39,115 nt of DNA from Candidatus Stahliibacteriota bacterium (GCA_030592225.1 JAUVJT010000001.1:1-39115); one strand, 5' to 3'; shown: positions 28,797 to 38,912, numbered from the stretch's first letter. Made by a program: numbers and translations. Notes: generated from the letters alone by a model not told the origin.

Positions 28797-28824
28797 TTGA
28801 CAATACCCGTCCCACTCCTATAAT
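28797..28824 (+). promoter_or_regulatory. Consensus sigma70 promoter of the LolA-like/LVIVD operon
   Basis: TTGACA (28797-28802), 16 nt spacer, TATAAT (28819-28824). A second TATAAT lies at 28829-28834. Confidence 0.6.
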
Positions 28825-28923: not shown

Positions 28924-29691
28924 ATGAGAGTAAGATTACCAAAAGGGGTGTGGGTTGTGGGATTATTTTTTGCAATAGCCGTCCCCGCAATGGCGGCAAG
29001 CGAGTATCCTGACGAATTGGGCTTCCTGGCCGACATCCCCACCCCCAAGTACCTTTCTGCAACCGCAACCCTTGCGTCTTTCGACTCCACAGGCAAAATG
29101 CTGGTTGAGCTGCCGGTTCAGTTTTACTGGGACGGAAAATCTCAAAAATACGCGATGGATATCCGGGGACCTGCCGGTGGGGCGAACATGTTCATGCTCG
29201 GAGTGGCCGATACCGTCTGGATGTATAACTTTATGCACGGCGTAATGCTCACCGCTTTCCGTAATCAAAGCTTCAGTTGGGCAACTAAACTGCCCTTTAC
29301 GGCTGAACATTTTCTGGCGCTGTTCAGCATTTTCCCCGATGGCTTCATCCGTATAGACTCCTTCCACATAGAAGATTCCCTGATCACAATCAAAAGCGAC
29401 AGAACTCTTTACTCTTTCGACCGCGAGAGCAAACAGCTGCAGAGTATACGGATTGGCAATACCGAAATGACATTCCGCGACTTTACAAAAACCAAAAAAA
29501 GGCTCTGGCCCAGGAAAATGATACTCAACCAGCCTCTCTTTACCCAGGGTACGGGAAGCGCCCGGATAAACATAGTTTCATTAAGCTTCAAACGTCAGCG
29601 GAAGGATAATTTGTTCGACGTCGAGCTTCCCCCCAATATGAAACGCGCATTCGATCTGCGCAACGTACCCCAGCCGCCCGACTCCGAATAA
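28924..29691 (+). CDS. Exported protein, possibly LolA/LolB-like (DUF4292-type) fold
   Basis: RBS AGGAGG. Signal peptide MRVRLPKGVWVVGLFFAIAVPAMA|A. The all-beta-looking body (..VELPVQFYWDGKSQKYAMDIRGPAG..SLITIKSDRTLYSFDRESKQLQSIRIGN..) is reminiscent of lipoprotein-carrier folds. The functional call is weak. Confidence 0.5.
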   Translation: MRVRLPKGVWVVGLFFAIAVPAMAASEYPDELGFLADIPTPKYLSATATLASFDSTGKMLVELPVQFYWDGKSQKYAMDIRGPAGGANMFMLGVADTVWMYNFMHGVMLTAFRNQSFSWATKLPFTAEHFLALFSIFPDGFIRIDSFHIEDSLITIKSDRTLYSFDRESKQLQSIRIGNTEMTFRDFTKTKKRLWPRKMILNQPLFTQGTGSARINIVSLSFKRQRKDNLFDVELPPNMKRAFDLRNVPQPPDSE

Positions 29692-29711: not shown

Positions 29712-31490
29712 ATGGCTTTCTTATTTCTGCTACTGCTTCAATCAAGCTTTGCACCCTGCTCGTCACTCTTGCTCGGCGGCGACTACCGGGCCGGGGCAGC
29801 CGATGACTCACTGCTCTACGTCGCAGACGGCAGGGGCATAAGCGCATTTGAGCAAAGGGCATTCAAACGCCGCGGCGACATTCTGCTGTCGGGCAAAACC
29901 TCTCATGCCGCCCTGTATGGTTCAAGCATCTTCGTAGGTGGAACCCGGGGACTGGCAAGGTTCGATGTCGGCATCCTGTCGCAGCCCGGGCACGTATATC
30001 AGCAGAACACCGAGGTGGAATGGCTGCACCGGGAGCCTGTCACTGCCCTGGAGGTATCCGGGAACAGGCTGTGGTTTGTAGACGCTTCCGGCCGGGTGTA
30101 CGGCATGAACCTGAGAGAAGGCGAAGACGCCTCTCCTTTAGAATTCGCCAGGCTTCCCGTTCCCGCGGTAAGAATCGTGCAGGCTGAGGCGCTCCTCTAC
30201 CTTGCTGCGGACACCGCAGGGGTTTTCGTGCTGGACCTCGATGCCGGGGAATCGCAGGCCAGGAAGCTGACCGTCGAGGATAATCCTCCGGTTGTGGATA
30301 TCCTGGTAGCAGGCGATAAGCTGTACCTGGCGTGCGCCGAGGAAGGATTATGGGCAACTCAGCCCAAACGCAACTCGCTTAAGGTTATCTCGCGCGTTGA
30401 TGCGGCCGGCGAGGTGATGAGCCTGGAGCTTTTCGGCGACAGAATCGCCGCAGCCTCGGGAAGCAAAGATTTCAGTCTCTTTTCAACAGATAGCCCGGAG
30501 GGCCTCGCCCAAATACAGGTGGAGCGCCTGCCCGGAACCGGGCTTGAACTCATAAAGGCTGGAACGAATTGTTTCGTGCTCACGGAAACAGGCATAGGGC
30601 GCATGGATATCTCCACCGCTCCCCTGGCAGGGCACGGGGTGTTCTTCAGGGGGAACGGTTCTGGCCACGATATCCTGACCCGCGGTGAAATCGCCGTTCT
30701 CGCGGCAGGCAAAGCCGGCGTGCAAATCATAGATTTGCAGGATACCCTTAGCTTGCTCGGCACCTACTCTGATGCAGCAGACTGCTGGAAGGCCTATCTT
30801 TTCGGGTCCCAGGTTTATGCCATGACTAAGGCCAACATAATGCAGGTTTCGGAGATAAAAAATCCCGCCAGGCCCGAGAAACGCACCTTTCTGAAGTTCT
30901 CCTCGGTGACTTCAGGGGTGGATACCGAGGGCGAAATGCTCCTTGCCGCCGAGCATGAGCAAGGCGTGGGGGTGTGGTGGCGCTGTCCTTGCGGCCCGTT
31001 CAAAGAACAGGGACGCTGGAGTCCCGGCGGCGAGGCGCTCGACGTTAAAATCAGAGAACAACTGGCTTTCGTCTCGACCGATATGGCAGCCCTGCACGTG
31101 ATTGACTGGTCGGACAGCGCCAACCCTGAAGAGCTTACCAGTCTGGCGCTGAACCGGGACTATGAGAGATTGTATCTGGACGAGGATCTTCTCTTCGGCC
31201 TGGATTCCTCAGGGGCGTTGGTATTGATTGACGTATCCCGCCCTACACGACCCAGAGAAGTGGCCGTGCTGGAACTCCCGGGCGCTCCCGCAGCGCTCGC
31301 ACGTCACCAGGACCGCTTGTTTATTGCCGCTCGGGACGAAGGGGTGCACGTAGTTGACATTTCCAAGCCCTCCTCGCCCGAATTGGTAGAGACCATCGAC
31401 GTGGAACCGGCCATGGGGGTGGCTATTTCCGGCAACAGACTGCTGGTCTGCACCCCCTATTCGGTAGAAGAGTATAAAATTCAACCTTAA
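29712..31490 (+). CDS. LVIVD-repeat beta-propeller protein (paralogue 1)
   Basis: About 13-14 repeats of roughly 40 aa with the LVIVD signature, e.g. GVFVLDLDAGE, AGVQIIDLQD, ALHVIDWSDSANPEEL, GALVLIDVSRPTRPREV, EGVHVVDISKPSSPELV. The N-terminus is hydrophobic (probable signal peptide, no basic n-region). Confidence 0.8.
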   Translation: MAFLFLLLLQSSFAPCSSLLLGGDYRAGAADDSLLYVADGRGISAFEQRAFKRRGDILLSGKTSHAALYGSSIFVGGTRGLARFDVGILSQPGHVYQQNTEVEWLHREPVTALEVSGNRLWFVDASGRVYGMNLREGEDASPLEFARLPVPAVRIVQAEALLYLAADTAGVFVLDLDAGESQARKLTVEDNPPVVDILVAGDKLYLACAEEGLWATQPKRNSLKVISRVDAAGEVMSLELFGDRIAAASGSKDFSLFSTDSPEGLAQIQVERLPGTGLELIKAGTNCFVLTETGIGRMDISTAPLAGHGVFFRGNGSGHDILTRGEIAVLAAGKAGVQIIDLQDTLSLLGTYSDAADCWKAYLFGSQVYAMTKANIMQVSEIKNPARPEKRTFLKFSSVTSGVDTEGEMLLAAEHEQGVGVWWRCPCGPFKEQGRWSPGGEALDVKIREQLAFVSTDMAALHVIDWSDSANPEELTSLALNRDYERLYLDEDLLFGLDSSGALVLIDVSRPTRPREVAVLELPGAPAALARHQDRLFIAARDEGVHVVDISKPSSPELVETIDVEPAMGVAISGNRLLVCTPYSVEEYKIQP

Positions 31491-31503
31491 AGGAGAGTGA
31501 AGG

Positions 31504-33267
31504 ATGCTTACAGGATTGCTCCTAACCTTGATGGCGGCGGCGCCGGAGGTGATGTTTGGGGATGCGGGGAATTACTTCGTAGCAGGAGATTTCGCAGATA
31601 TCGTGGAGGTTGATGGGACCATCTACGCGGCAAGCGGTTTTGGGTTGACGACAGTTCCCGCAGACCTCAGCTCGCAGGAGCATTTTCCCACGCCATACTA
31701 CTCGCGGAAGATTGCATCGGCTGACAAACGGTTATACCTCGGTGAAGGCACGAGGATTACCGCATTCAAGGTATCTGGCAAAGCCGTACAGATGCTGGCC
31801 TCTTACCCGGTACAAGGCAGAATAACCGCACTGGCAGCCGGCAAGGATTTCGTGGCCGCGGGTACGGATTCGGCAAAAGTGGAGATATTCTCACAAGACT
31901 CCAGGCTGAAACCGATTGCCGTCATCGATATGCCCGAAACTGTGAAGGATATCGTCTTTTACAAGGGATTCCTCTACGCGGCCTGCGGCAGGGAAGGAGT
32001 TGTTATCATAAGACTGGGAGATGCTCCGGCTAAAGTGGGAGAACTTTCCCTATCCGGCGCCCGGGCTTTGGAGGTTGGTGAAAATACTCTGTTTGTGGCC
32101 ATCGCTTCTACGGAGATTTATGGTTTCTCCCTGGCCGACCCCGCCTCACCTCAAGAGAAGATCAAGTTCTCAAGTTCCTCGCCTGCGGTCTCGCTTGCAT
32201 ATTACGACAAGCATCTGTACGCCGCACAGAGATACCAGGGCTACTCCATCTTCAACCTGCGCGGCGAACGAGTTGAACTGGCCGAGCCGTTCCGCCAGGG
32301 CGACGTGGTGGACATTCTGCCCACCGATGAGGGCGTGTTTCTGGCGCTGCGGGAGGCGGGAGTTGTGCGTCTGGAAGATGAAACCCTCGCCGAGCTAACC
32401 CTCACCGCTCGTCTTGAGCAAAACTCCCCGTCAATTCACACCACCCAAAGCGGTTCGTTCTGGGCGGTGGCTCGCGGCGAGGATGGTGCAAGTATCGTAA
32501 GGCTGTTTGAAGGCGAGACCTTTGTGACCCTGGGCCATGCCGAGCCTCCGCCTTCAAATGCGGCAGGCGTTTTTCTCTCCGGAACCTATCTGTACGTGGC
32601 CGACGTCAAACACGGCGCTTCCATATACAACATGAAAACCTTCCCTGTGGCCGAACGCAGCTTTGACCTGCACCAGCCGGGCGAGCCGCAGCGCATCAAC
32701 CTGACCAATGATTTGATACCCCTTGCCGCAGGTGAATGGGGACTAAGGGTACTGTGGATATGCCCTTGCGGCCCGCTCAAACAGCGCTCAGCCCTGGGAG
32801 GCTTCACCGCTGTAGACGTCGCGGCCCGGGATTCAATCATATACGTGGCCGATCCCGACTCAGGCCTGCGAATCATGGAGGTGAGCGAGGAAGGGGTCAA
32901 ACTCACCCAGCTTTCCGTATACCCAGGGGTAATAAGCCCCCGGGCGCTATTGCGTGACGGAGATGTTCTGTACGTGGCGGACAGCATCGGCGCAATCGCG
33001 GCGCTGGACGTATCCGACCCCGCCAACCCCGAACAGCTTTCCTTCACCTTTATAGACACCCGACCTTACGGACTGGATATTGAGAATTCAACCCTGTACG
33101 TGGCCTGCGGCGAGAGCGGAGTGTTAGAGATAGATGTGAGTGATCCCTCGGCGCCGAAGCCCGGCGAGTTCATCGAAACACCGGGCAAGGCCCTTGCGGT
33201 TGCCGCATCGAAGCGCCATCTGGGTGTGGCCGACTACACATCCTGGATACTCCTGCCTCTGGAGTAA
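31504..33267 (+). CDS. LVIVD-repeat beta-propeller protein (paralogue 2)
   Basis: RBS AAGGAGAG. Repeats such as GVVIIRLGD, SGLRIMEVSEEG, GAIAALDVSDPANPEQL, SGVLEIDVSDPSAPKP. Collinear with paralogue 1, including the CPCGP motif. The N-terminus is hydrophobic. Confidence 0.8.
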   Translation: MLTGLLLTLMAAAPEVMFGDAGNYFVAGDFADIVEVDGTIYAASGFGLTTVPADLSSQEHFPTPYYSRKIASADKRLYLGEGTRITAFKVSGKAVQMLASYPVQGRITALAAGKDFVAAGTDSAKVEIFSQDSRLKPIAVIDMPETVKDIVFYKGFLYAACGREGVVIIRLGDAPAKVGELSLSGARALEVGENTLFVAIASTEIYGFSLADPASPQEKIKFSSSSPAVSLAYYDKHLYAAQRYQGYSIFNLRGERVELAEPFRQGDVVDILPTDEGVFLALREAGVVRLEDETLAELTLTARLEQNSPSIHTTQSGSFWAVARGEDGASIVRLFEGETFVTLGHAEPPPSNAAGVFLSGTYLYVADVKHGASIYNMKTFPVAERSFDLHQPGEPQRINLTNDLIPLAAGEWGLRVLWICPCGPLKQRSALGGFTAVDVAARDSIIYVADPDSGLRIMEVSEEGVKLTQLSVYPGVISPRALLRDGDVLYVADSIGAIAALDVSDPANPEQLSFTFIDTRPYGLDIENSTLYVACGESGVLEIDVSDPSAPKPGEFIETPGKALAVAASKRHLGVADYTSWILLPLE

Positions 33268-33370
33268 TCCAGACCTCTCTCTTGCGGATTAACAGTAAGG
33301 GGTTGATATTTCAAGGCTTACAGAACAAGAGTTGCGGATAGTGCCGTAAGACACGGCAATCCAAATCCGC

Positions 33371-33398
33371 TTGACAAGTTAAATCCGTAGAGTATACT
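33371..33398 (+). promoter_or_regulatory. sigma70-type promoter of the radical SAM pair
   Basis: TTGACA (33371-33376), 16 nt spacer, TATACT (33393-33398). The leader to the ATG at 33551 is about 145 nt. Confidence 0.55.
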
Positions 33399-33550
33399 TT
33401 ATAAAACGTGGGGTATCACCTCGCGGGGTCCAGGATGGTCTTGAACGCGGCAATGCCCCCTTCCCCCGAGTCTGCAAATGAGGGTACGAGAGAGCTAACT
33501 ATAAGAGCAGGGTGAAGATACACAGGTAACGAAGGAGAATAACGAATAAG

Positions 33551-34915
33551 ATGGCTGCCAGATTGAATTCGAACCCCAAGATTCTCTTAACCACCGCCTA
33601 CCGGCATTCGGCAAACGACTACTACGATGCCAGTGGAGTGAACTTCGTACGCAAGCCTCACTTTGCATTGCCCCGCACCGTCTCCACGTCCCTGCGGTTC
33701 CTTAAGCAGAACATCCCCGAGATCGAGATAATGGAGTTTCCCCGCTGGCACGAGTACGTAGCAAAGCTCCGCGAAGGCTGGGATGCGGTAGGATTCACCT
33801 TCTTCCACCACGATCTGGCCGAGATACTCCAGATGGTCGAGGAGGCCAGACGTCAGGGCATCCGCGAGATATGGGCCGGCGGCTACGGCGGTCTCTCTCT
33901 GGAGGCTGAGGAGTTTGCCGACCGCATCTTCTACGGCTACGCGGAGAAGCAGTTCAACGAGGAGATCTTCGGACGCAAGCTGGAGCGCGTCCAGCATCCG
34001 CCGGTGGCTATGACGGTTAACGTGAACCTCCCGCCCACCGTACCCTTCAAGAAGGTGGGGTATCTGTTTACCCAACGCGGCTGTCCATACCGCTGCACAT
34101 TTTGTCAGACCCCAATCCACTCGCCGCGCCCGGCCCGGGTCCCGCTCGAGAGCATCGAGGAGGTGCTGCGCTACTACCGCTCGGTCGGAATCAACGAGGT
34201 GTGGATTCTCGATGAGACTTTCTACACCTTCCCCTCCCACTCCGAGGCGGTCATAGATTTGCTTACCCGCTATAACTTCTACTGGTGGGTGCAGTCGCGC
34301 GCGGATTTGACCCTGAAGCATCTTGACGACTGGGCCGATCGCGGGATGGTGGTGGTTGGGTTCGGGTTGGAAAGCGTTAACAACGAAATCCTGGCCAAGA
34401 TCGGGAAGAGAACCAACCTGGAGGTTATGCGGGAATTCAGACGGCGAACCGCCGAACGTATGGTGTACGCGATGGCCTACTACATGATAGGTTACGAGGA
34501 AGATACTGTTTCCTCGGTTCTGCGCGACTACGTTACCCTGCGCAAGATGGGGTTTGATATGCATCAGCTAACCGTACTCACCCCCTTTCCCAAAACCCCA
34601 CAGTGGTTTGACTTCAGGGAACGCTACGGTATCTTCGAGCCCGACTACCACCGCTACGACGCACGTCACCTTGTGTGGAATCATCCCCAAATCACGCCCT
34701 CCCAGATGCAGATGCTTTTGCGCGTCGGTCTGGCAAACCTCAACGTTCCCATGGATAACTATGGCAAGGCGATCATTCGTCTGATTCAACGCCGCCTGTA
34801 CGACAAAGGCATCCCGCGGTTAATCTGGGAGGAGTTGATAAAACCCCCAATTCATGCTCTCGGTTTCCGCGAACGCAAGCAGGTCTTTATCCCCGCAAAT
34901 GGAGCGAGAGGATAA
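33551..34915 (+). CDS. B12-binding-domain-type (class B-like) radical SAM protein, paralogue 1
   Basis: CX3CX2C cluster motif RGCPYRCTFCQ. N-terminal Rossmann-like module (KILLTTAY...PRTVSTSLRFLKQNIPEIEIMEF...WDAVGFTFF) arranged as in cobalamin-binding rSAM enzymes. No C-terminal SPASM Cys cluster and no signal peptide. Confidence 0.9.
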   Translation: MAARLNSNPKILLTTAYRHSANDYYDASGVNFVRKPHFALPRTVSTSLRFLKQNIPEIEIMEFPRWHEYVAKLREGWDAVGFTFFHHDLAEILQMVEEARRQGIREIWAGGYGGLSLEAEEFADRIFYGYAEKQFNEEIFGRKLERVQHPPVAMTVNVNLPPTVPFKKVGYLFTQRGCPYRCTFCQTPIHSPRPARVPLESIEEVLRYYRSVGINEVWILDETFYTFPSHSEAVIDLLTRYNFYWWVQSRADLTLKHLDDWADRGMVVVGFGLESVNNEILAKIGKRTNLEVMREFRRRTAERMVYAMAYYMIGYEEDTVSSVLRDYVTLRKMGFDMHQLTVLTPFPKTPQWFDFRERYGIFEPDYHRYDARHLVWNHPQITPSQMQMLLRVGLANLNVPMDNYGKAIIRLIQRRLYDKGIPRLIWEELIKPPIHALGFRERKQVFIPANGARG

Positions 34916-34916
34916 G

Positions 34917-36278
34917 ATGCCCAGACCGACCACAAATCCCAAGATACTTCTAACCACCGCATACCGACACTCAAAGAACGATTATTACGACGCGATAGGG
35001 GCGAACTTCGTGCGCACCCCTCGCTTTGCCATCCCCCGTACCGTAGCCTCGGGACTGCGATTCATCAAGCAGAACGTTCCGGATATCGAGATAATGGAGT
35101 ATCCCCTGTGGCACGAGTTCACAGCAAAGCTTGCCGAAGGCTGGGACGTTGTGGGATTTTCGTTCTTCCAGCACGACATCGGAGAGGTGCTGGAGATGGC
35201 TGCGGAGGCGCGGCGTCAGGGGGTCAAGGAAATATGGGCAGGTGGCTATGGTGCACTCGATTCGATTGCCGAGGAGTTTGCCGACCGTGTCTTCTACGGC
35301 TACTCAGAGGAACAGCTCCTTGCTGAGCTTTTTGGCCGCAAGCTGGACAGGCTGCGCCACCCTCCCCTGGTATGGCCTTTAAACATCAATCTCCCACCGG
35401 CAATTCCATACAAGAAACTGGGTATCGTCAACACCCAGCGCGGCTGTCCCTACCGCTGCACATTCTGCCAGACTCCAGTACATGCGCCACACCCTTCACG
35501 TATTCCGCTTGAAAGCATCGAGGAAATAATTCGTTACTACCGATCCGTGGGTATCAATGAGGTATGGATAATCGACGAAACCTTCTACACCTTTCCTTCC
35601 CACTCGAAAGCGGTTATCGACATGTTGGCCAGATACGATATGCACTGGAAACCGATGACGCGCGCCGATTTATGCCTTGAGCATCTCGACAGCTGGGTTG
35701 ACCGGGGCATGGTGATGGTCTCGGTGGGGGTGGAAAGCGTCAACAACGAGATACTGGCCAAGATCGGCAAGAGAACGAACATAGAACTCATGCAGGAGTT
35801 CAGGCGTCGCACCATAGAGAAGAAGGTCTTCGTTCTCGCCTATTACATGTTAGGCTACGAGGAGAATACATATGAGTCTATACTTCGGGATATCGAGGTC
35901 ATACGCAAGAACCTCTGGTTCGATCTCTTCCAGCTCACCGTGATGACACCTTACCCCCGAACCCCGCTATGGTACGATTTGGAGTCGCGCTACGGCATCT
36001 TTGAACGTGACTATCATAAGTTCGACGCACGCCACCTGGTTTGGAATCACCCCAACATCAGTCCTCGCCAGATGGATAAGCTTCTGCGGATGGCCATGGC
36101 CCACCTTAATATCCCGATGCGTAACTACATTAAAGGACTTATAGGGTTAGGCCAGCGTCGCATACACCAGAAGGGTTTTGGCTTTCTGTGGGATGACGTG
36201 GCCCGGCCGTTTCTGCATTCGCTGAGATATAACGAACGCAAACAGGTGTCCTTGCCCCGGCTGGAGAAAAAACCCTGA
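34917..36278 (+). CDS. B12-binding-domain-type (class B-like) radical SAM protein, paralogue 2
   Basis: Identical RGCPYRCTFCQ motif. Collinear with paralogue 1 without indels, with well over half the residues identical by eye. The ATG at 34917 lies 1 nt after the upstream TAA with GAGAGGA upstream; the track start at 34854 overlaps gene 1. Confidence 0.9.
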   Translation: MPRPTTNPKILLTTAYRHSKNDYYDAIGANFVRTPRFAIPRTVASGLRFIKQNVPDIEIMEYPLWHEFTAKLAEGWDVVGFSFFQHDIGEVLEMAAEARRQGVKEIWAGGYGALDSIAEEFADRVFYGYSEEQLLAELFGRKLDRLRHPPLVWPLNINLPPAIPYKKLGIVNTQRGCPYRCTFCQTPVHAPHPSRIPLESIEEIIRYYRSVGINEVWIIDETFYTFPSHSKAVIDMLARYDMHWKPMTRADLCLEHLDSWVDRGMVMVSVGVESVNNEILAKIGKRTNIELMQEFRRRTIEKKVFVLAYYMLGYEENTYESILRDIEVIRKNLWFDLFQLTVMTPYPRTPLWYDLESRYGIFERDYHKFDARHLVWNHPNISPRQMDKLLRMAMAHLNIPMRNYIKGLIGLGQRRIHQKGFGFLWDDVARPFLHSLRYNERKQVSLPRLEKKP

Positions 36279-36387: not shown

Positions 36388-37554
36388 CTACTGTGGTGAC
36401 TCCTGTGGAGCAAGCAGCCGCTGGATTGTCCGGCGGGCCGACGAGTGGGCAGGATTAAACCGCAGGGCGGTCTCCAACACCATAATCGCCGCTGAAATCT
36501 GACCTCTTTGAGCGTAAAGATATGACAGGTTATCGTAGGAATCCATAAACGTGGGATCGGCGCGAATCGCCTGCTTGAATGAGAGAACCGCCTTGTCGAA
36601 ATACCCCTCTGCATTATAGACAAACCCCAGGTTGTTGAGGATCATTGCATACATTCTGCTGGATTCCGGAAGCATCCACTCCGCCATACGAGCGCCTGTC
36701 TTCAGTATTTCTTCAGCTTCCTTCAACCGTCCCTGACGATAAAAAAGACTCCCCAGCTTGACGTATGCACTTATATTCTCCTGATTCTCACGCTGCGCCC
36801 GGCGGTAATATTCTTCCGCGCGCGCGTAATCCTTTTGGCTCTCAGCAATACCGCCGAGAAGAGAAGAAGTTTCGCTCCGCTCGTATCCCAGCTCGTAAGC
36901 CTTGGTCATCATTTCCGCCGCCTGTACCTGATTTCTAGTCATCCGATAGTAGATACCCAGTTGGTAATAGCAGTATCCCGGTTTGAAATTATACTCAAGC
37001 GCTTCCCTAAAAGCCCGCTCACCTATCTCGTAGTGCCTGGACTTCATCGCCGTGAGGGCGTAGTCAACGTGAGTCGCCTTCAGGGGAAACTCCTCGGGAC
37101 GCTGCCTCATGCGTGAAAATATCTCGAAAGCCGTCTGATCCTGACCCAGAAGAGCATGGCAGCGCGCGCGCTGGTAAGTCACCCAGGGAACGTCAAGCCC
37201 GGCACGCTCCGCCTTCTGGTAAAAAGCAAGTGCCTGATTGTAATCCCTGCGCGTGTAGTATACCTCGGCTTGCAGAAAATCGGCAAGAACGGCAAATTCC
37301 TGCTCCTGCCGGGGAGAAGTCTTCATGGGCTGAAAGAACCCCGCTATCGGAAGGGCAAGAACGACAAACAGACCTGAAAGAACAAGAAGCCATCTGGATT
37401 TGAAGAATACGGCCAGAACCAGAACAACGGCCAGAGGCGGTGCAATAAACCACAAGGCAGACATGGCAAGAAGTAACGGGGGCAGAAGAGCAATCAAAAC
37501 AGCGCCCACCACTACGGCAATAACGTGGGCGGTCGAGACTCCGACGCTCCTCAT
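36388..37554 (-). CDS. Membrane-anchored TPR-repeat protein
   Basis: Three N-terminal hydrophobic helices, then about 7 TPR-like units (..YNQALAFYQKAERAG.., ..YARAEEYYRRAQRE.., ..GRLKEAEEILKTGARM.., FDKAVLSFKQAIRADP..). The start overlaps the upstream gene stop (ATGA). Confidence 0.85.
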   Translation of the reverse strand: MRSVGVSTAHVIAVVVGAVLIALLPPLLLAMSALWFIAPPLAVVLVLAVFFKSRWLLVLSGLFVVLALPIAGFFQPMKTSPRQEQEFAVLADFLQAEVYYTRRDYNQALAFYQKAERAGLDVPWVTYQRARCHALLGQDQTAFEIFSRMRQRPEEFPLKATHVDYALTAMKSRHYEIGERAFREALEYNFKPGYCYYQLGIYYRMTRNQVQAAEMMTKAYELGYERSETSSLLGGIAESQKDYARAEEYYRRAQRENQENISAYVKLGSLFYRQGRLKEAEEILKTGARMAEWMLPESSRMYAMILNNLGFVYNAEGYFDKAVLSFKQAIRADPTFMDSYDNLSYLYAQRGQISAAIMVLETALRFNPAHSSARRTIQRLLAPQESPQ

Positions 37555-38912
37555 TTCTCAACTTCCTTCGGGGATTGCTTGGCCCGCCGCAGGATGATCT
37601 CGCGTCCCAGAAACACCACTGCAAGCGAAGCAAAAATCACCAGCGCCAGTTGCCACGGGAAGATAAGCGCTGCTCGCTCGGCACCGAACAGCGAATATCC
37701 GCAAAACACCAGCAGGAAAACCGCAAGCGTGTTCAAAAGCACAGATGGTACGAAGTATCGTTGGAGTCGCAGAGGAGGCATTGTCAGAACAAGCGCCACG
37801 ACAAGAAAACAAACGTAGACAAACAAGGTTGGGTACCCCAGGCACCACGCAAAGGCTGTGGCCAGAACGAACATCCCGCCTGCAGCCCTGCGGAATGTCT
37901 TTCTGTCCGCTTCACTGCGCTCCGAATCGTAGCCGCGGCTCAGGAACAGGTGTACTGCAGCTGAGGCGGCTCCCAGAATAAACAGGGCAATCAGAGCCAG
38001 GTAGTCAAACGGGTTGCGCGGAACGCCTACCAGGAGATCGCGCAGGCCGAGCCATGCAAACAGGAAGCCCGCGCCTGCAGCAAACGCCGATATTATCATT
38101 ATAACGGGATCAAGAGAACGAATTAAAAGGCGCGTTTTCTCCTTGCTGTACAAAAACAGCCCGAGCCACAGCATTGGGGTAAACGGGAAAAGAAGAACCA
38201 ATGCGTACTTACGGGTGGAGGAGTTGATGAGTCCACCCAAAAAGTAAAGCGACTGGGTTGACGAAGGGTCGCCCGGCAAAAGACCCATGATCTGCTGCGT
38301 ACCGCCGGTGACTACAGCGGCTACTGCCATAATAATCGGGGTAAGCAGAATCGAGATTATCTTCCGCCGGGTAGTACGGGCTCGAAGACCACTGTATATC
38401 GCAACCAACAAAACAGCTAGATATATCTCTACCAGCATCCCGGGAGAAGTGCCGTAAGGAACCACTGCCTCCCCCCACGAGGAGAAAATAAGCCAGGGCT
38501 GCAAGATAGCCTTGATTCCGTTGATGACCATTGCGGGATCGCCGGGGTAGGCAAGATTAAAACCGCCGGAACGAAACAGGGGATCGACCAACGGCGGAAT
38601 CATGATGATAAACGAATAAACTAAAAGCACCCGAATTGTCTTGCGGAAATCTATCCCGGCGACGAGACGCATCAATAGCGCTATTGCGAGATACATCACG
38701 AAGTAGAAGAGGGAATAATGCAGAAACAGCATCTCGATGGTCAGGATAGTGGTTACAGTATTCCCTGTCCCTGATGTCTCCATCACGCCTTCCGTTATAT
38801 TGCGCACGACCGTGTAGCCATAAGCTATCAGGATAAACGTCCCGAGAGACATCGTCGATTTCTCCACCGGTTTGATGAAGGTGTTGTCTAACCAGTTAAA
38901 AAACTTTTTCAT
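37551..38912 (-). CDS. Polytopic integral membrane protein of unknown function (about 12 TM helices)
   Basis: RBS GGAAGGAGAG upstream of the ATG at 38912. Hydrophobic helices are spread across the 453 aa. The C-terminal third has a weak UbiA-like flavour (..TMPPLRLQRYFVPSVLLN..), but I could not recognise intact Asp-rich motifs. Confidence 0.7.
   Translation of the reverse strand: MKKFFNWLDNTFIKPVEKSTMSLGTFILIAYGYTVVRNITEGVMETSGTGNTVTTILTIEMLFLHYSLFYFVMYLAIALLMRLVAGIDFRKTIRVLLVYSFIIMIPPLVDPLFRSGGFNLAYPGDPAMVINGIKAILQPWLIFSSWGEAVVPYGTSPGMLVEIYLAVLLVAIYSGLRARTTRRKIISILLTPIIMAVAAVVTGGTQQIMGLLPGDPSSTQSLYFLGGLINSSTRKYALVLLFPFTPMLWLGLFLYSKEKTRLLIRSLDPVIMIISAFAAGAGFLFAWLGLRDLLVGVPRNPFDYLALIALFILGAASAAVHLFLSRGYDSERSEADRKTFRRAAGGMFVLATAFAWCLGYPTLFVYVCFLVVALVLTMPPLRLQRYFVPSVLLNTLAVFLLVFCGYSLFGAERAALIFPWQLALVIFASLAVVFLGREIILRRAKQSPKEVEK

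What the first reader, a model, noticed from the sequence alone, without database searches (positions are those of the whole stretch)
30984..32775. Invariant W-x-CPCGP-(F/L)-K motif at the same repeat position of both LVIVD paralogues, conserved even at the nucleotide level
Paralogue 1 has GVGVWWRCPCGPFKEQ (codons at 30984-30998). Paralogue 2 has GLRVLWICPCGPLKQR (32761-32775). The DNA reads TGTCCTTGCGGCCCGTTCAAA versus TGCCCTTGCGGCCCGCTCAAA, which is 19/21 identical, whereas the rest of the two genes is far more diverged. The motif replaces the usual D-V-S-D-P-x-x-P turn of an LVIVD blade, at about the 10th repeat. A vicinal Cys pair in a Pro/Gly turn could be a metal site, a redox disulfide or a modification site. 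The nearby radical SAM pair makes the last option worth testing.
Basis: seen in the sequence. Interest (0 to 1): 0.6.

Follow-up and report, generated by a model that had tools for sequence, protein, structure and literature searches.

The report
Invariant cysteine-pair hairpin in twin propellers
Two neighbouring, very diverged beta-propeller proteins of an uncultured WOR-3/TA06 bacterial lineage both keep a Cys-x-Cys-Gly-Pro turn that never changes. It is most likely a metal-binding or other thiol-based functional site, and nothing links it to the nearby radical SAM enzymes.

Summary
Both about 590-aa LVIVD proteins (29712-31490 and 31504-33267, 23% identical) carry W-x-CPCGP-(F/L)-K at the stated codons.

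- **Conservation.** In 37 sequences of both paralogues from three families of one order, some only about 21-25% identical, six columns are invariant. Four of them are C, C, G and P of this motif.
- **Specificity.** The motif is absent from 146 other LVIVD proteins (302,587 residues).
- **Structure.** An AlphaFold model (pLDDT 89) shows a tandem 7+7-blade propeller. CPCGP is the 5-residue C-D turn of blade 10, where neighbouring blades have the canonical 7-residue loop.
- **Nucleotide level.** The 19/21 identity is a protein-level effect. Synonymous sites vary freely among orthologues.
- **Radical SAM link: not supported.**
  - The enzymes form a separate promoter unit, vary from 0 to 5 adjacent copies, and are absent from one motif-bearing genome.
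  - They occur in genomes without the motif proteins.
  - They have no auxiliary-cluster cysteines and sit next to UbiA prenyltransferases.
- **Disulfide.** DsbB and VKOR are absent from the whole family, which argues against a catalysed disulfide.

Best guess (about 0.35): reduced thiolates that bind a metal, possibly shared 2+2 between the co-expressed paralogues. The function is untested.

The parts
28797..28824 (+). Consensus sigma-70-like promoter (TTGACA-16-TATAAT) ahead of the three-gene unit LolA-like + LVIVD1 + LVIVD2
   Evidence: 12 of 12 matches. This is a pattern match only.
28924..29691 (+). Exported 255-aa protein with a LolA/LolB fold; first gene of the conserved trio
   Evidence: Classic Sec signal peptide MRVRLPKGVWVVGLFFAIAVPAMA/AS. 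AF2 pLDDT 81, with Foldseek top hits P. gingivalis LolA3 and LolB and other LolA/LolB structures (E 5e-9). Present directly upstream of LVIVD1 in every locus examined. No Pfam or NCBIfam hit.
29712..31490 (+). LVIVD paralogue 1 (592 aa), a tandem 7+7-blade beta-propeller
   Evidence: PF08309 at 47.6 bits. AF2 pLDDT 89.4 and pTM 0.88, 14 four-stranded blades. Foldseek hits are tandem WD propellers. Twenty orthologues at 41-94% identity.
30978..31004 (+). W-R-C-P-C-G-P-F-K hairpin of paralogue 1 (residues 423-431); C-D turn of blade 10
   Evidence: WRCPCGP is invariant in 20 orthologues. C425, C427, G428 and P429 are invariant in all 37 family members.
31504..33267 (+). LVIVD paralogue 2 (587 aa), 13 nt after paralogue 1
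   Evidence: PF08309 at 37.3 bits. 23% identical to paralogue 1 over nearly the full length. Twelve orthologues at 47-68% identity.
32755..32781 (+). W-I-C-P-C-G-P-L-K hairpin of paralogue 2 (residues 418-426), aligned with that of paralogue 1
   Evidence: C420, C422, G423 and P424 are invariant. The middle P is S in 2 of the 13 aligned sequences.
33371..33398 (+). Separate near-consensus promoter (TTGACA-16-TATACT) ahead of the radical SAM pair
   Evidence: 11 of 12 matches. A 283-nt spacer follows LVIVD2.
33551..34915 (+). Radical SAM enzyme a (454 aa). A neighbour of the motif proteins, not shown to be their partner.
   Evidence: PF04055. Only weak hits to the core of class-B rSAM families such as HpnJ, PhpK, BchE and AprD4, far under their cut-offs. 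Its only cysteines are C178, C182 and C185.
34917..36278 (+). Radical SAM enzyme b, a tandem paralogue. The ORF is open from 34854 and homology starts at about 34923.
   Evidence: (65% identical to a).
36388..37554 (-). TPR protein with N-terminal membrane helices, convergent with the module and syntenic with it
   Evidence: Syntenic in L001, L002, L004, L006, L061 and L111.
37551..38912 (-). 453-aa polytopic membrane protein with no family assignment, syntenic with the TPR gene
   Evidence: Orthologues in L061 (33% identity) and L111 (57%).

Best explanation
C-x-C-G-P is the defining functional site of a lineage-specific family of paired double-propeller proteins, and it is selected purely at the protein level. 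Each paralogue displays two cysteines on the tight C-D hairpin of blade 10, flanked by a conserved Trp, a hydrophobic residue and usually a Lys. The two genes are always adjacent and tightly spaced or overlapping, behind a LolA/LolB-like exported protein, so they are probably made together and work as a pair. I infer, but have not shown, that the cysteines act as reduced thiolates that bind a metal ion. The most economical arrangement is a 2+2 tetrathiolate 'clasp' shared between the two paralogues, like the Zn clasp of CD4/Lck or the Rad50 zinc hook. The neighbouring radical SAM enzymes are an optional, separately transcribed add-on that more likely acts on a prenyl or lipid substrate than on this motif. 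Shown: conservation, specificity, structural position, and independence from the rSAMs. Inferred: thiolate state, metal binding, heterodimer.
For: Conservation and specificity:
- Only 6 of about 590 columns are invariant across 37 sequences of both paralogues from three families. Four are C425, C427, G428 and P429, and the best 7-residue window is 423-429.
- The motif survives at 21-25% identity in G104 (YWVCPCGPIEK and FWKCPCGPIKM) and in G106 (LWICPCGPLK and ACTCGPF).
- No other cysteine is conserved in either family.
- No C-x-C-G-P occurs in 146 other LVIVD proteins, nor elsewhere in 272 genomes of the phylum apart from out-of-frame noise.

Structure:
- The motif is an exposed-type C-D turn of blade 10 in a confident model. 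pLDDT is 84 for residues 421-430, against 91-95 in the flanking blocks.

Co-expression of the paralogues:
- The genes are 13 nt apart here, overlap by 4 nt in G104 and by 22 nt in G106, and follow one consensus promoter.

Reduced thiolates rather than a disulfide:
- DsbB and VKOR are absent from all 11 genomes of the family, with positive controls.

Precedents that CPC/CxC binds metals:
- P1B-ATPase CPC (PMC10246665) and the CD4/CD8 CxC(P)-Lck zinc clasp (PMC12198760).
- The only local PDB resemblance is FWNCPCVPMRER of the ferredoxin:thioredoxin reductase catalytic chain (1dj7_A 69-82). To my own knowledge both of its cysteines ligate a [4Fe-4S] cluster.

Independence from the rSAMs:
-.
Against: - There is no direct evidence for any metal, for a heterodimer, or for proximity of the two hairpins. 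The tools gave a monomer model without coordinates, so solvent exposure and Cys-Cys geometry were not measured.
- The compartment is uncertain. The N-termini are 9-11 hydrophobic residues with no Lys or Arg in 35 of 37 sequences. Paralogue 2 often has an AQA-type cleavage site, whereas paralogue 1 has no obvious one.
- The FTR resemblance is statistically insignificant (E 0.5-2.5).
- Two cysteines alone are few ligands for a site within one monomer.
- G106 paralogue 1 has lost the Trp and the middle Pro, so only C-x-C-G-P is strictly required.
- Gene adjacency does not prove a complex.
Confidence: 0.35

Rival explanations
1. Each hairpin is an independent site. The two thiolates of one protein bind their own ligand, for example linear two-coordinate Cu(I) or a substrate or cofactor, or act as a nucleophile pair. 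Nothing is shared between the paralogues.
For: Both paralogues keep the full hairpin with similar flanks, W-x-CPCGP-hydrophobic-K. This fits two equivalent autonomous sites as well as it fits a shared one. CxC and CPC motifs bind Cu(I) or Zn within single chains (P1B-ATPases, PMC10246665).
Against: No third or fourth conserved ligand lies nearby in the sequence other than the generic LVIVD Asp residues. The strict retention of two paralogues, both with the site, in every genome is more naturally explained by a joint function.
Confidence: 0.2
2. The two cysteines form a C-x-C disulfide. It is either a structural staple of the tight turn or a redox-active centre like the CPC of Mia40.
For: CPC is the catalytic redox motif of Mia40 (PMC4951193). 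The first gene of the operon is clearly exported, and the propellers have signal-like hydrophobic N-termini, so an extracytoplasmic location is plausible.
Against: DsbB and VKOR are absent from all 11 genomes of the family, with positive controls. The sources named in the records (a subsurface metagenome, TA06/WOR-3 bins) suggest an anoxic habitat, which is my inference. The fold is a beta-propeller, unrelated to the CHCH fold of Mia40. A purely structural staple would not need invariant G-P and a conserved Trp in two paralogues at 21% identity.
Confidence: 0.15
3. The cysteines are a post-translational modification site for the neighbouring radical SAM enzymes, by thioether formation, methylation or similar.
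For: rSAM genes are adjacent in many loci: 2 copies here, 5 in L002 and L004, 1 in L003 and L006, and 2 in G104. Ten of 11 genomes of the family have the rSAM family.
Against: - The motif is retained with no adjacent rSAM in G095/L001 (where only a relic remains), G096 and G106. G096 has no rSAM of this family at all.
- rSAMs are present without the motif proteins in G105, G108 and G109.
- The rSAM pair has its own promoter.
- The enzymes contain only the three CX3CX2C cysteines, whereas known Cys-modifying rSAMs (sactisynthases, ranthipeptide synthases, anSME) carry SPASM/twitch clusters by established knowledge.
- The rSAMs sit beside UbiA prenyltransferases in G104 and G108, which suggests a lipid or prenyl substrate.
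- Copy number varies from 0 to 5 adjacent copies while the motif never changes.
Confidence: 0.07
4. The motif is only a structural turn with no chemistry, or the DNA identity reflects a nucleotide-level element or gene conversion between the paralogues.
For: G-P is a classic turn former. The 19/21 nucleotide identity in this genome is mildly unusual (P about 0.03-0.04).
Against: Cysteine is rare in LVIVD proteins (0.58% of residues). Two invariant cysteines in both paralogues, down to about 21-25% identity, cannot be explained by turn geometry. Synonymous sites vary freely in other genomes and the flanking DNA is not identical, which excludes a DNA-level element or a recent conversion tract.
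Confidence: 0.05

Closest known systems
LVIVD-repeat beta-propeller proteins (Pfam PF08309; Adindla et al. 2004, PMC2447325)
   Same: Both proteins pass the Pfam threshold. They have four-stranded blades with the D-[VI]-S-x-P-x-x-P C-D loop in blades 9 and 11-13, and probably a cell-envelope context.
   Different: They are a compact tandem 7+7-blade architecture that always occurs as two adjacent paralogues. Blade 10 carries an invariant C-x-C-G-P turn found in none of 146 other LVIVD proteins examined. No family model or annotation exists for this subgroup; all records say 'hypothetical protein'.
Zinc clasp (CD4/CD8alpha C-x-C-P plus Lck C-x-x-C) and Rad50 zinc hook
   Same: Two polypeptides each contribute a very short two-Cys motif. 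The proposed role is an inter-chain tetrathiolate metal site that holds a hetero- or homodimer together (PMC12198760).
   Different: Those motifs sit in unstructured tails or coiled-coil apices of eukaryotic or SMC-like proteins. Here they sit on a beta-hairpin of a propeller blade. Metal binding and dimerisation are untested.
Ferredoxin:thioredoxin reductase catalytic subunit, Cys74-Pro-Cys76 (PDB 1DJ7, 2PU9 and others)
   Same: The local sequence FWNCPCVPMRER resembles WWRCPCGPFKEQ. In FTR both cysteines of this CPC ligate one [4Fe-4S] cluster (my own knowledge of Dai et al. 2000 and 2007).
   Different: The similarity is not significant (E 0.5-2.5). FTR is a small helical subunit with two CPC motifs plus a CHC motif. 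An Fe-S cluster would need a cytoplasmic or Tat-exported protein, and no twin-arginine signal is present.
Mia40/CHCHD4 catalytic CPC
   Same: An identical Cys-Pro-Cys tripeptide (PMC4951193).
   Different: The fold is different (CHCH helices versus beta-propeller). No partner oxidase is present: DsbB and VKOR are absent from the lineage.
P1B-type ATPase transmembrane CPC metal site
   Same: A CPC tripeptide used as soft-metal ligands (PMC10246665).
   Different: That site lies inside a transmembrane helix of a pump. This one is on a soluble propeller hairpin.

Membership tests
LVIVD repeat family (PF08309) | Score above the Pfam gathering threshold | tested here: met
   47.6 and 37.3 bits against a cut-off of 20.2.
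LVIVD repeat family (PF08309) | Repeats of about 42 residues that form four-stranded blades of a beta-propeller | tested here: met
   The AF2 model (pLDDT 89.4) has 14 blades, and Foldseek matches tandem 7-blade propellers.
LVIVD repeat family (PF08309) | Canonical D-[VI]-S-x-P-x-x-P loop after the third strand of each repeat | tested here: inconclusive
   The loop is present in blades 9, 11, 12 and 13. It is replaced by CPCGP in blade 10 and is degenerate in blades 1-8.
Radical SAM-modified protein or RiPP-like substrate (sactipeptide, ranthipeptide or anSME type) | Substrate and maturase co-occur obligatorily | tested here: not met
   The motif occurs without an adjacent rSAM, or without any rSAM, in G095, G096 and G106. 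The rSAM occurs without the motif in G105, G108 and G109.
Radical SAM-modified protein or RiPP-like substrate (sactipeptide, ranthipeptide or anSME type) | Maturase carries SPASM/twitch auxiliary Fe-S cysteines | tested here: not met
   Only the CX3CX2C cysteines are present, plus one non-conserved Cys in copy b.
Radical SAM-modified protein or RiPP-like substrate (sactipeptide, ranthipeptide or anSME type) | Covalent modification of the Cys residues | not testable with these tools
   This needs mass spectrometry.
Mia40-type redox-active CPC | CPC tripeptide | tested here: met
Mia40-type redox-active CPC | CHCH helical fold with a hydrophobic substrate cleft | tested here: not met
   The fold is an all-beta tandem propeller.
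Mia40-type redox-active CPC | A disulfide-generating partner system in the same compartment | tested here: not met
   DsbB (PF02600) and VKOR (PF07884) are absent from 11 of 11 genomes, with positive controls. Erv-type oxidases were not searched.
Inter-chain Cys4 metal clasp (zinc clasp or zinc hook type) | Two chains that each donate a short two-Cys motif | tested here: met
   Both co-encoded paralogues carry an invariant C-x-C and no other conserved Cys.
Inter-chain Cys4 metal clasp (zinc clasp or zinc hook type) | Physical dimer with one shared metal ion | not testable with these tools
   No multimer prediction or coordinates were available. This needs co-purification and metal analysis.
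Ferredoxin:thioredoxin reductase catalytic subunit | Significant sequence or fold similarity, and the CPC...CPC...CHC arrangement | tested here: not met
   Only a 14-residue local resemblance at E 0.5-2.5, one CPC per chain, and a different fold.

The most novel reading that the evidence does not exclude
The two C-x-C-G-P hairpins together form an inter-subunit tetrathiolate centre (Zn, Cu or an Fe-S cluster). This centre clasps a heterodimer of double propellers into the core of a previously undescribed envelope machine: a LolA/LolB-like carrier, twin propellers, and a TPR plus polytopic membrane pair. The machine would handle a lipid or prenyl product tailored by the variable radical SAM/UbiA genes. 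The metal centre would act as the assembly switch or the redox/metal sensor of that machine.
Probability: 0.15. Interest if true: 0.7.

Novelty: new variant of a known kind. Interest (0 to 1): 0.42.

Why it matters
The motif is a clean sequence signature for an uncharacterised gene module, C-x-C-G-P on blade 10 of both paralogues. The module is conserved and lineage-restricted: it is in all 11 genomes of one family and in relatives of two further families of one order within a 272-genome phylum sample. The motif also marks the one site in two 590-residue proteins where mutagenesis is most likely to be informative. If the cysteines bridge the paralogues through a metal, this would be a new way of building a propeller heterodimer, and a handle on an unknown envelope system of the FCB-related candidate phyla. 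The work also removes a tempting but unsupported story, that radical SAM enzymes modify the cysteines, and it shows that the DNA-level identity has no meaning of its own.

Tried and rejected
1. **Nucleotide-level element or gene conversion.** Rejected. Synonymous sites differ among orthologues and the flanks are not identical.
2. **Small precursor-peptide ORF between LVIVD2 and the rSAMs.** Nothing credible lies in 33268-33550. The 44-aa ORF upstream of the rSAM in L006 and the 60-aa ORF in L001 were checked. The L001 ORF is a relic of a deleted rSAM gene, matching residues 273-303 and 441-453.
3. **Natural knock-out test in G095 (TA06 B3).** Not clean, because two rSAM homologues sit elsewhere in that genome. 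G096 is a better case, but it is only 91% complete.
4. **Other W-x-CPCGP hits in the phylum.** Nine scattered hits, several reading W-P-C-P-C-G-P, looked like a second family. All are out-of-frame, GC-rich noise.
5. **Search with the G104 protein at E<=1e-8 in six genomes.** It returned nothing even for G106, where the gene exists, so the result is uninformative. It was replaced by a pattern scan.
6. **Exhaustive representative search.** It was swamped by giant multi-repeat LVIVD proteins. It showed only that paralogue 1 has 4 clusters at 50% identity plus one fragment.
7. **PDB by sequence.** No relative beyond marginal hits to the tandem-propeller sensor domains of Bacteroides hybrid two-component systems.
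8. **In-frame TGA in some rSAM paralogues as possible selenocysteine.** I looked briefly at G095:C13 and found no TGA in the N-terminal region. Not pursued further.
9. **P0210 as a UbiA-like enzyme.** Only a weak tblastn hit obtained without a composition filter, with no Pfam support. Dropped.
10. **Literature support for FTR Cys ligation.** Searches found nothing usable, so the point rests on my own knowledge.
11. **Surface exposure and Cys-Cys distance.** These could not be computed, because model coordinates are not exposed to the Python box.


Full report
**1. Observation**

The two ORFs 29712-31490 (P0001, 592 aa) and 31504-33267 (P0002, 587 aa) lie 13 nt apart on the + strand. Their translations contain GVGVWWRCPCGPFKEQ and GLRVLWICPCGPLKQR. 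CPCGP is encoded exactly at 30984-30998 and 32761-32775.

- Both proteins pass the Pfam LVIVD threshold.
- They are 23% identical over almost their whole length, and the two motifs align with each other.
- The 21-nt stretches are 19/21 identical, whereas the aligned genes are 38% identical at the nucleotide level.

**2. Is it more than chance?**

*Paralogue 1.* I collected 20 orthologues (41-94% identical; metagenomes and bins labelled candidate division TA06 or WOR-3). WRCPCGP is an invariant 7-mer in all of them and is the longest invariant block.

*Paralogue 2.* In the 13 aligned sequences (this window's protein plus 12 orthologues at 47-68% identity), I-C-x-C-G-P-L is invariant. The middle Pro is Ser in two of them.

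*Phylum scan.* A DNA-pattern scan for W-x-C-P-C-G-P over 272 genomes of the phylum gave real hits in three places:
- all 11 genomes of the window's own family (f1);
- G104 (family f2);
- G106 (family f3).

All other hits were out-of-frame, GC-rich noise.

*Distant relatives.* The G104 and G106 proteins are only about 21-29% identical to the window's proteins. They still read YWVCPCGPIEK and FWKCPCGPIKM in G104, and ACTCGPF and LWICPCGPLK in G106.

*Combined alignment.* In a 37-sequence alignment of both paralogues from the three families, only six columns are invariant: G42, G418, C425, C427, G428 and P429. The most conserved 7-residue window of the whole protein is 423-429. No other cysteine is conserved.

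*Background.* In 146 other LVIVD proteins (302,587 residues, 0.58% Cys) there is no C-x-C-G-P and there are only two CPC tripeptides. The 26 more distant hits of the two word-based searches also lack the motif. The motif is therefore a true, strongly selected signature of this pair of paralogues.

**3. The nucleotide-level claim**

Where the two genes have identical aligned amino acids, the codon is also identical in 37-39% of cases. Five of six identical codons in the motif therefore has P of about 0.03-0.04.

In five other genomes the synonymous positions of these codons differ freely, both between paralogues and between orthologues. The flanking DNA in the window is not identical. There is no DNA-level constraint and no conversion tract. 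The identity is amino-acid constraint plus coincidence.

**4. Structure**

AlphaFold2 on the 20-sequence alignment gave a confident model (pLDDT 89.4, pTM 0.88). It has 14 four-stranded blades. The closest solved folds are tandem 7+7 WD propellers such as Utp12/13/21-type proteins, axonemal microtubule inner proteins and AIP1.

CPCGP is the 5-residue turn between strands 418-424 and 430-436, which is the C-D connection of blade 10. Blades 9, 11, 12 and 13 carry the canonical 7-residue LVIVD loops IKNPARP, WSDSANP, VSRPTRP and ISKPSSP.

C-D loops lie on the rim of one propeller face, and the local pLDDT dips to 84, as expected for an exposed loop.

**5. Genomic context**

The conserved core is a three-gene unit behind a perfect consensus promoter at 28797:
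- an exported 255-aa protein with a classic signal peptide, which is a lipoprotein in G104;
- LVIVD paralogue 1;
- LVIVD paralogue 2.

The 255-aa protein folds as LolA/LolB. Its AF2 pLDDT is 81, and the Foldseek top hits are P. gingivalis LolA3 and LolB (E 5e-9). The three genes are tightly spaced everywhere and overlap by 4 nt in G104.

A convergent TPR protein and a polytopic membrane protein of about 450 aa are usually nearby.

**6. The radical SAM enzymes**

*Position and copy number.* The rSAMs lie between the trio and the TPR/membrane pair, under their own near-consensus promoter at 33371. The number of adjacent copies varies:

| Locus or genome | Adjacent rSAM copies |
|---|---|
| G095/L001 | 0 (a 60-aa relic of a deleted rSAM remains) |
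| G096 | 0 |
| L003 | 1 |
| L006 | 1 (rearranged locus) |
| This window | 2 |
| G104 | 2 |
| L002, L004 | 5 |

*Genome-wide distribution.*
- G096 (91% complete) has no rSAM of this family at all, yet keeps CPCGPF and CSCGPL.
- G095 has two rSAM copies elsewhere in its genome.
- G106 has its rSAMs on another contig.
- Conversely, G105, G108 and G109 have the rSAM family but no C-x-C-G-P LVIVD protein.

*Enzyme features.*
- The enzymes contain only the CX3CX2C cysteines. They therefore lack the SPASM/twitch clusters of all known Cys-modifying rSAMs (established knowledge).
- They match only the core of class-B families such as HpnJ, PhpK, BchE and AprD4, far below the cut-offs.
- In G104 and G108 they sit next to UbiA prenyltransferases.

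The motif is not common in LVIVD proteins, but it is also not tied to rSAM neighbours. An earlier follow-up in this scan on a sister genome reached the same view, that the rSAM array is an optional add-on.

**7. What the cysteines do**

*Shown:*
- absolute conservation of the two Cys plus Gly-Pro in both paralogues;
- a conserved Trp two residues upstream, then a hydrophobic residue, then usually Lys;
- position on a hairpin of the same blade in both paralogues;
- co-encoding of the two proteins.

*Inferred:*
- The thiols are probably reduced. DsbB and VKOR are absent from all 11 genomes of the family, with positive controls.
- The compartment is uncertain. The N-termini are 9-11 hydrophobic residues without Lys or Arg in 35 of 37 sequences. 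Paralogue 2 often has an AQA-type cleavage site. The T9SS cargo protein encoded upstream also has a short, weakly charged signal. I judge export probable (about 65%), but it is not shown.

*Precedents.* Short CPC/CxC motifs are well-known soft-metal ligands:
- the P1B-ATPase CPC (PMC10246665);
- the CD4/CD8 C-x-C-P motif that pairs with Lck C-x-x-C around one Zn2+ (PMC12198760);
- the ferredoxin:thioredoxin reductase segment FWNCPCVPMRER (1dj7_A 69-82), which is the only local resemblance in the PDB to WWRCPCGPFKEQ. The match is not significant (E 0.5-2.5). To my knowledge both of its cysteines ligate a [4Fe-4S] cluster.

*Preferred mechanism.* Exactly four invariant cysteines exist in the two co-expressed proteins, two on each, on equivalent hairpins. 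I therefore favour a 2+2 tetrathiolate metal site that clasps a pseudo-symmetric heterodimer (confidence about 0.35).

*Rivals.* These are independent per-chain sites (0.20), a C-x-C disulfide (0.15), an rSAM-dependent modification (0.07), and a purely structural or DNA-level feature (0.05). The remaining probability is unassigned.

**8. Comparison with known families, and novelty**

The proteins are members of the LVIVD family (threshold and fold tests met). They form an unannotated subgroup: every record says 'hypothetical protein', there is no NCBIfam hit, there is no literature, and there is no solved relative.

They work, at most, like zinc-clasp or zinc-hook systems or like FTR-type CPC ligation. 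They are not members of any of these families, and they are not Mia40-like (fold and partner-oxidase tests failed). I rate the finding a new variant of a known kind.

**9. Verdict**

The motif is real and highly specific, and it marks the likely functional centre of a lineage-restricted envelope module. The radical SAM hypothesis and the nucleotide-level claim are not supported. The chemical role of the cysteines remains to be tested.

Noticed in passing
L001:13699-13881 (TA06 B3_TA06 genome, between LVIVD2 and the TPR gene): A 60-aa ORF is a collapsed relic of a radical SAM gene. It matches residues 273-303 and about 441-453 of the window's rSAMs, so the adjacent rSAM was recently deleted in this genome. 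Two diverged copies (42-45% identity) survive elsewhere as solitary genes.
   Followed up: yes
window 33551-36278; L002, L004, L061, L062, L063: The rSAM family forms tandem arrays of very variable size: 0 to 5 copies next to the module, and up to 6 matches per genome. It sits next to UbiA prenyltransferases in G104 (L061:9552-10394) and G108 (L063:1770-2702). This hints at a prenyl or lipid substrate.
   Followed up: partly
table (G094, G095, G097, G101, G102, G103, G109): Several rSAM paralogues in related genomes contain one in-frame stop (TGA, TAA or TAG). These could be decaying copies, assembly errors or, for TGA, recoding. A brief look at G095:C13 found no TGA in the N-terminal region.
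   Followed up: partly
window 29712-29750 and 31504-31545, and all 37 family members: Both propellers start with 9-11 hydrophobic residues directly after the Met. There is no Lys or Arg in the first 12 residues in 35 of 37 sequences. This is unlike the classic signal peptide of the LolA-like protein encoded just upstream, so export and cleavage are uncertain.
   Followed up: partly
whole genomes G000 and G094-G103: No DsbB and no VKOR homologue is detectable in any of the 11 genomes of this family, with positive controls. The lineage apparently lacks the usual periplasmic disulfide-forming machinery.
   Followed up: yes
L094:9546-11210 (G106, family f3): The most divergent paralogue 1 reads N-D-A-C-T-C-G-P-F. 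The Trp and the middle Pro are lost while C-x-C-G-P is kept. This defines the minimal invariant core of the motif.
   Followed up: yes
L003:11753-11770: In this WOR-3 locus the two propeller genes are in the same reading frame, separated only by one stop codon and four codons. A single stop-codon change would fuse them into a polypeptide of about 1190 aa. I did not look for natural fusions.
   Followed up: no
L003:15218-17407: In one locus the single rSAM is followed by an anti-sigma zf-HC2 protein, two Metal_resist/LTXXQ (CpxP/Spy-like) proteins and an ECF sigma factor. This envelope or metal-stress module was not seen in the other loci.
   Followed up: no
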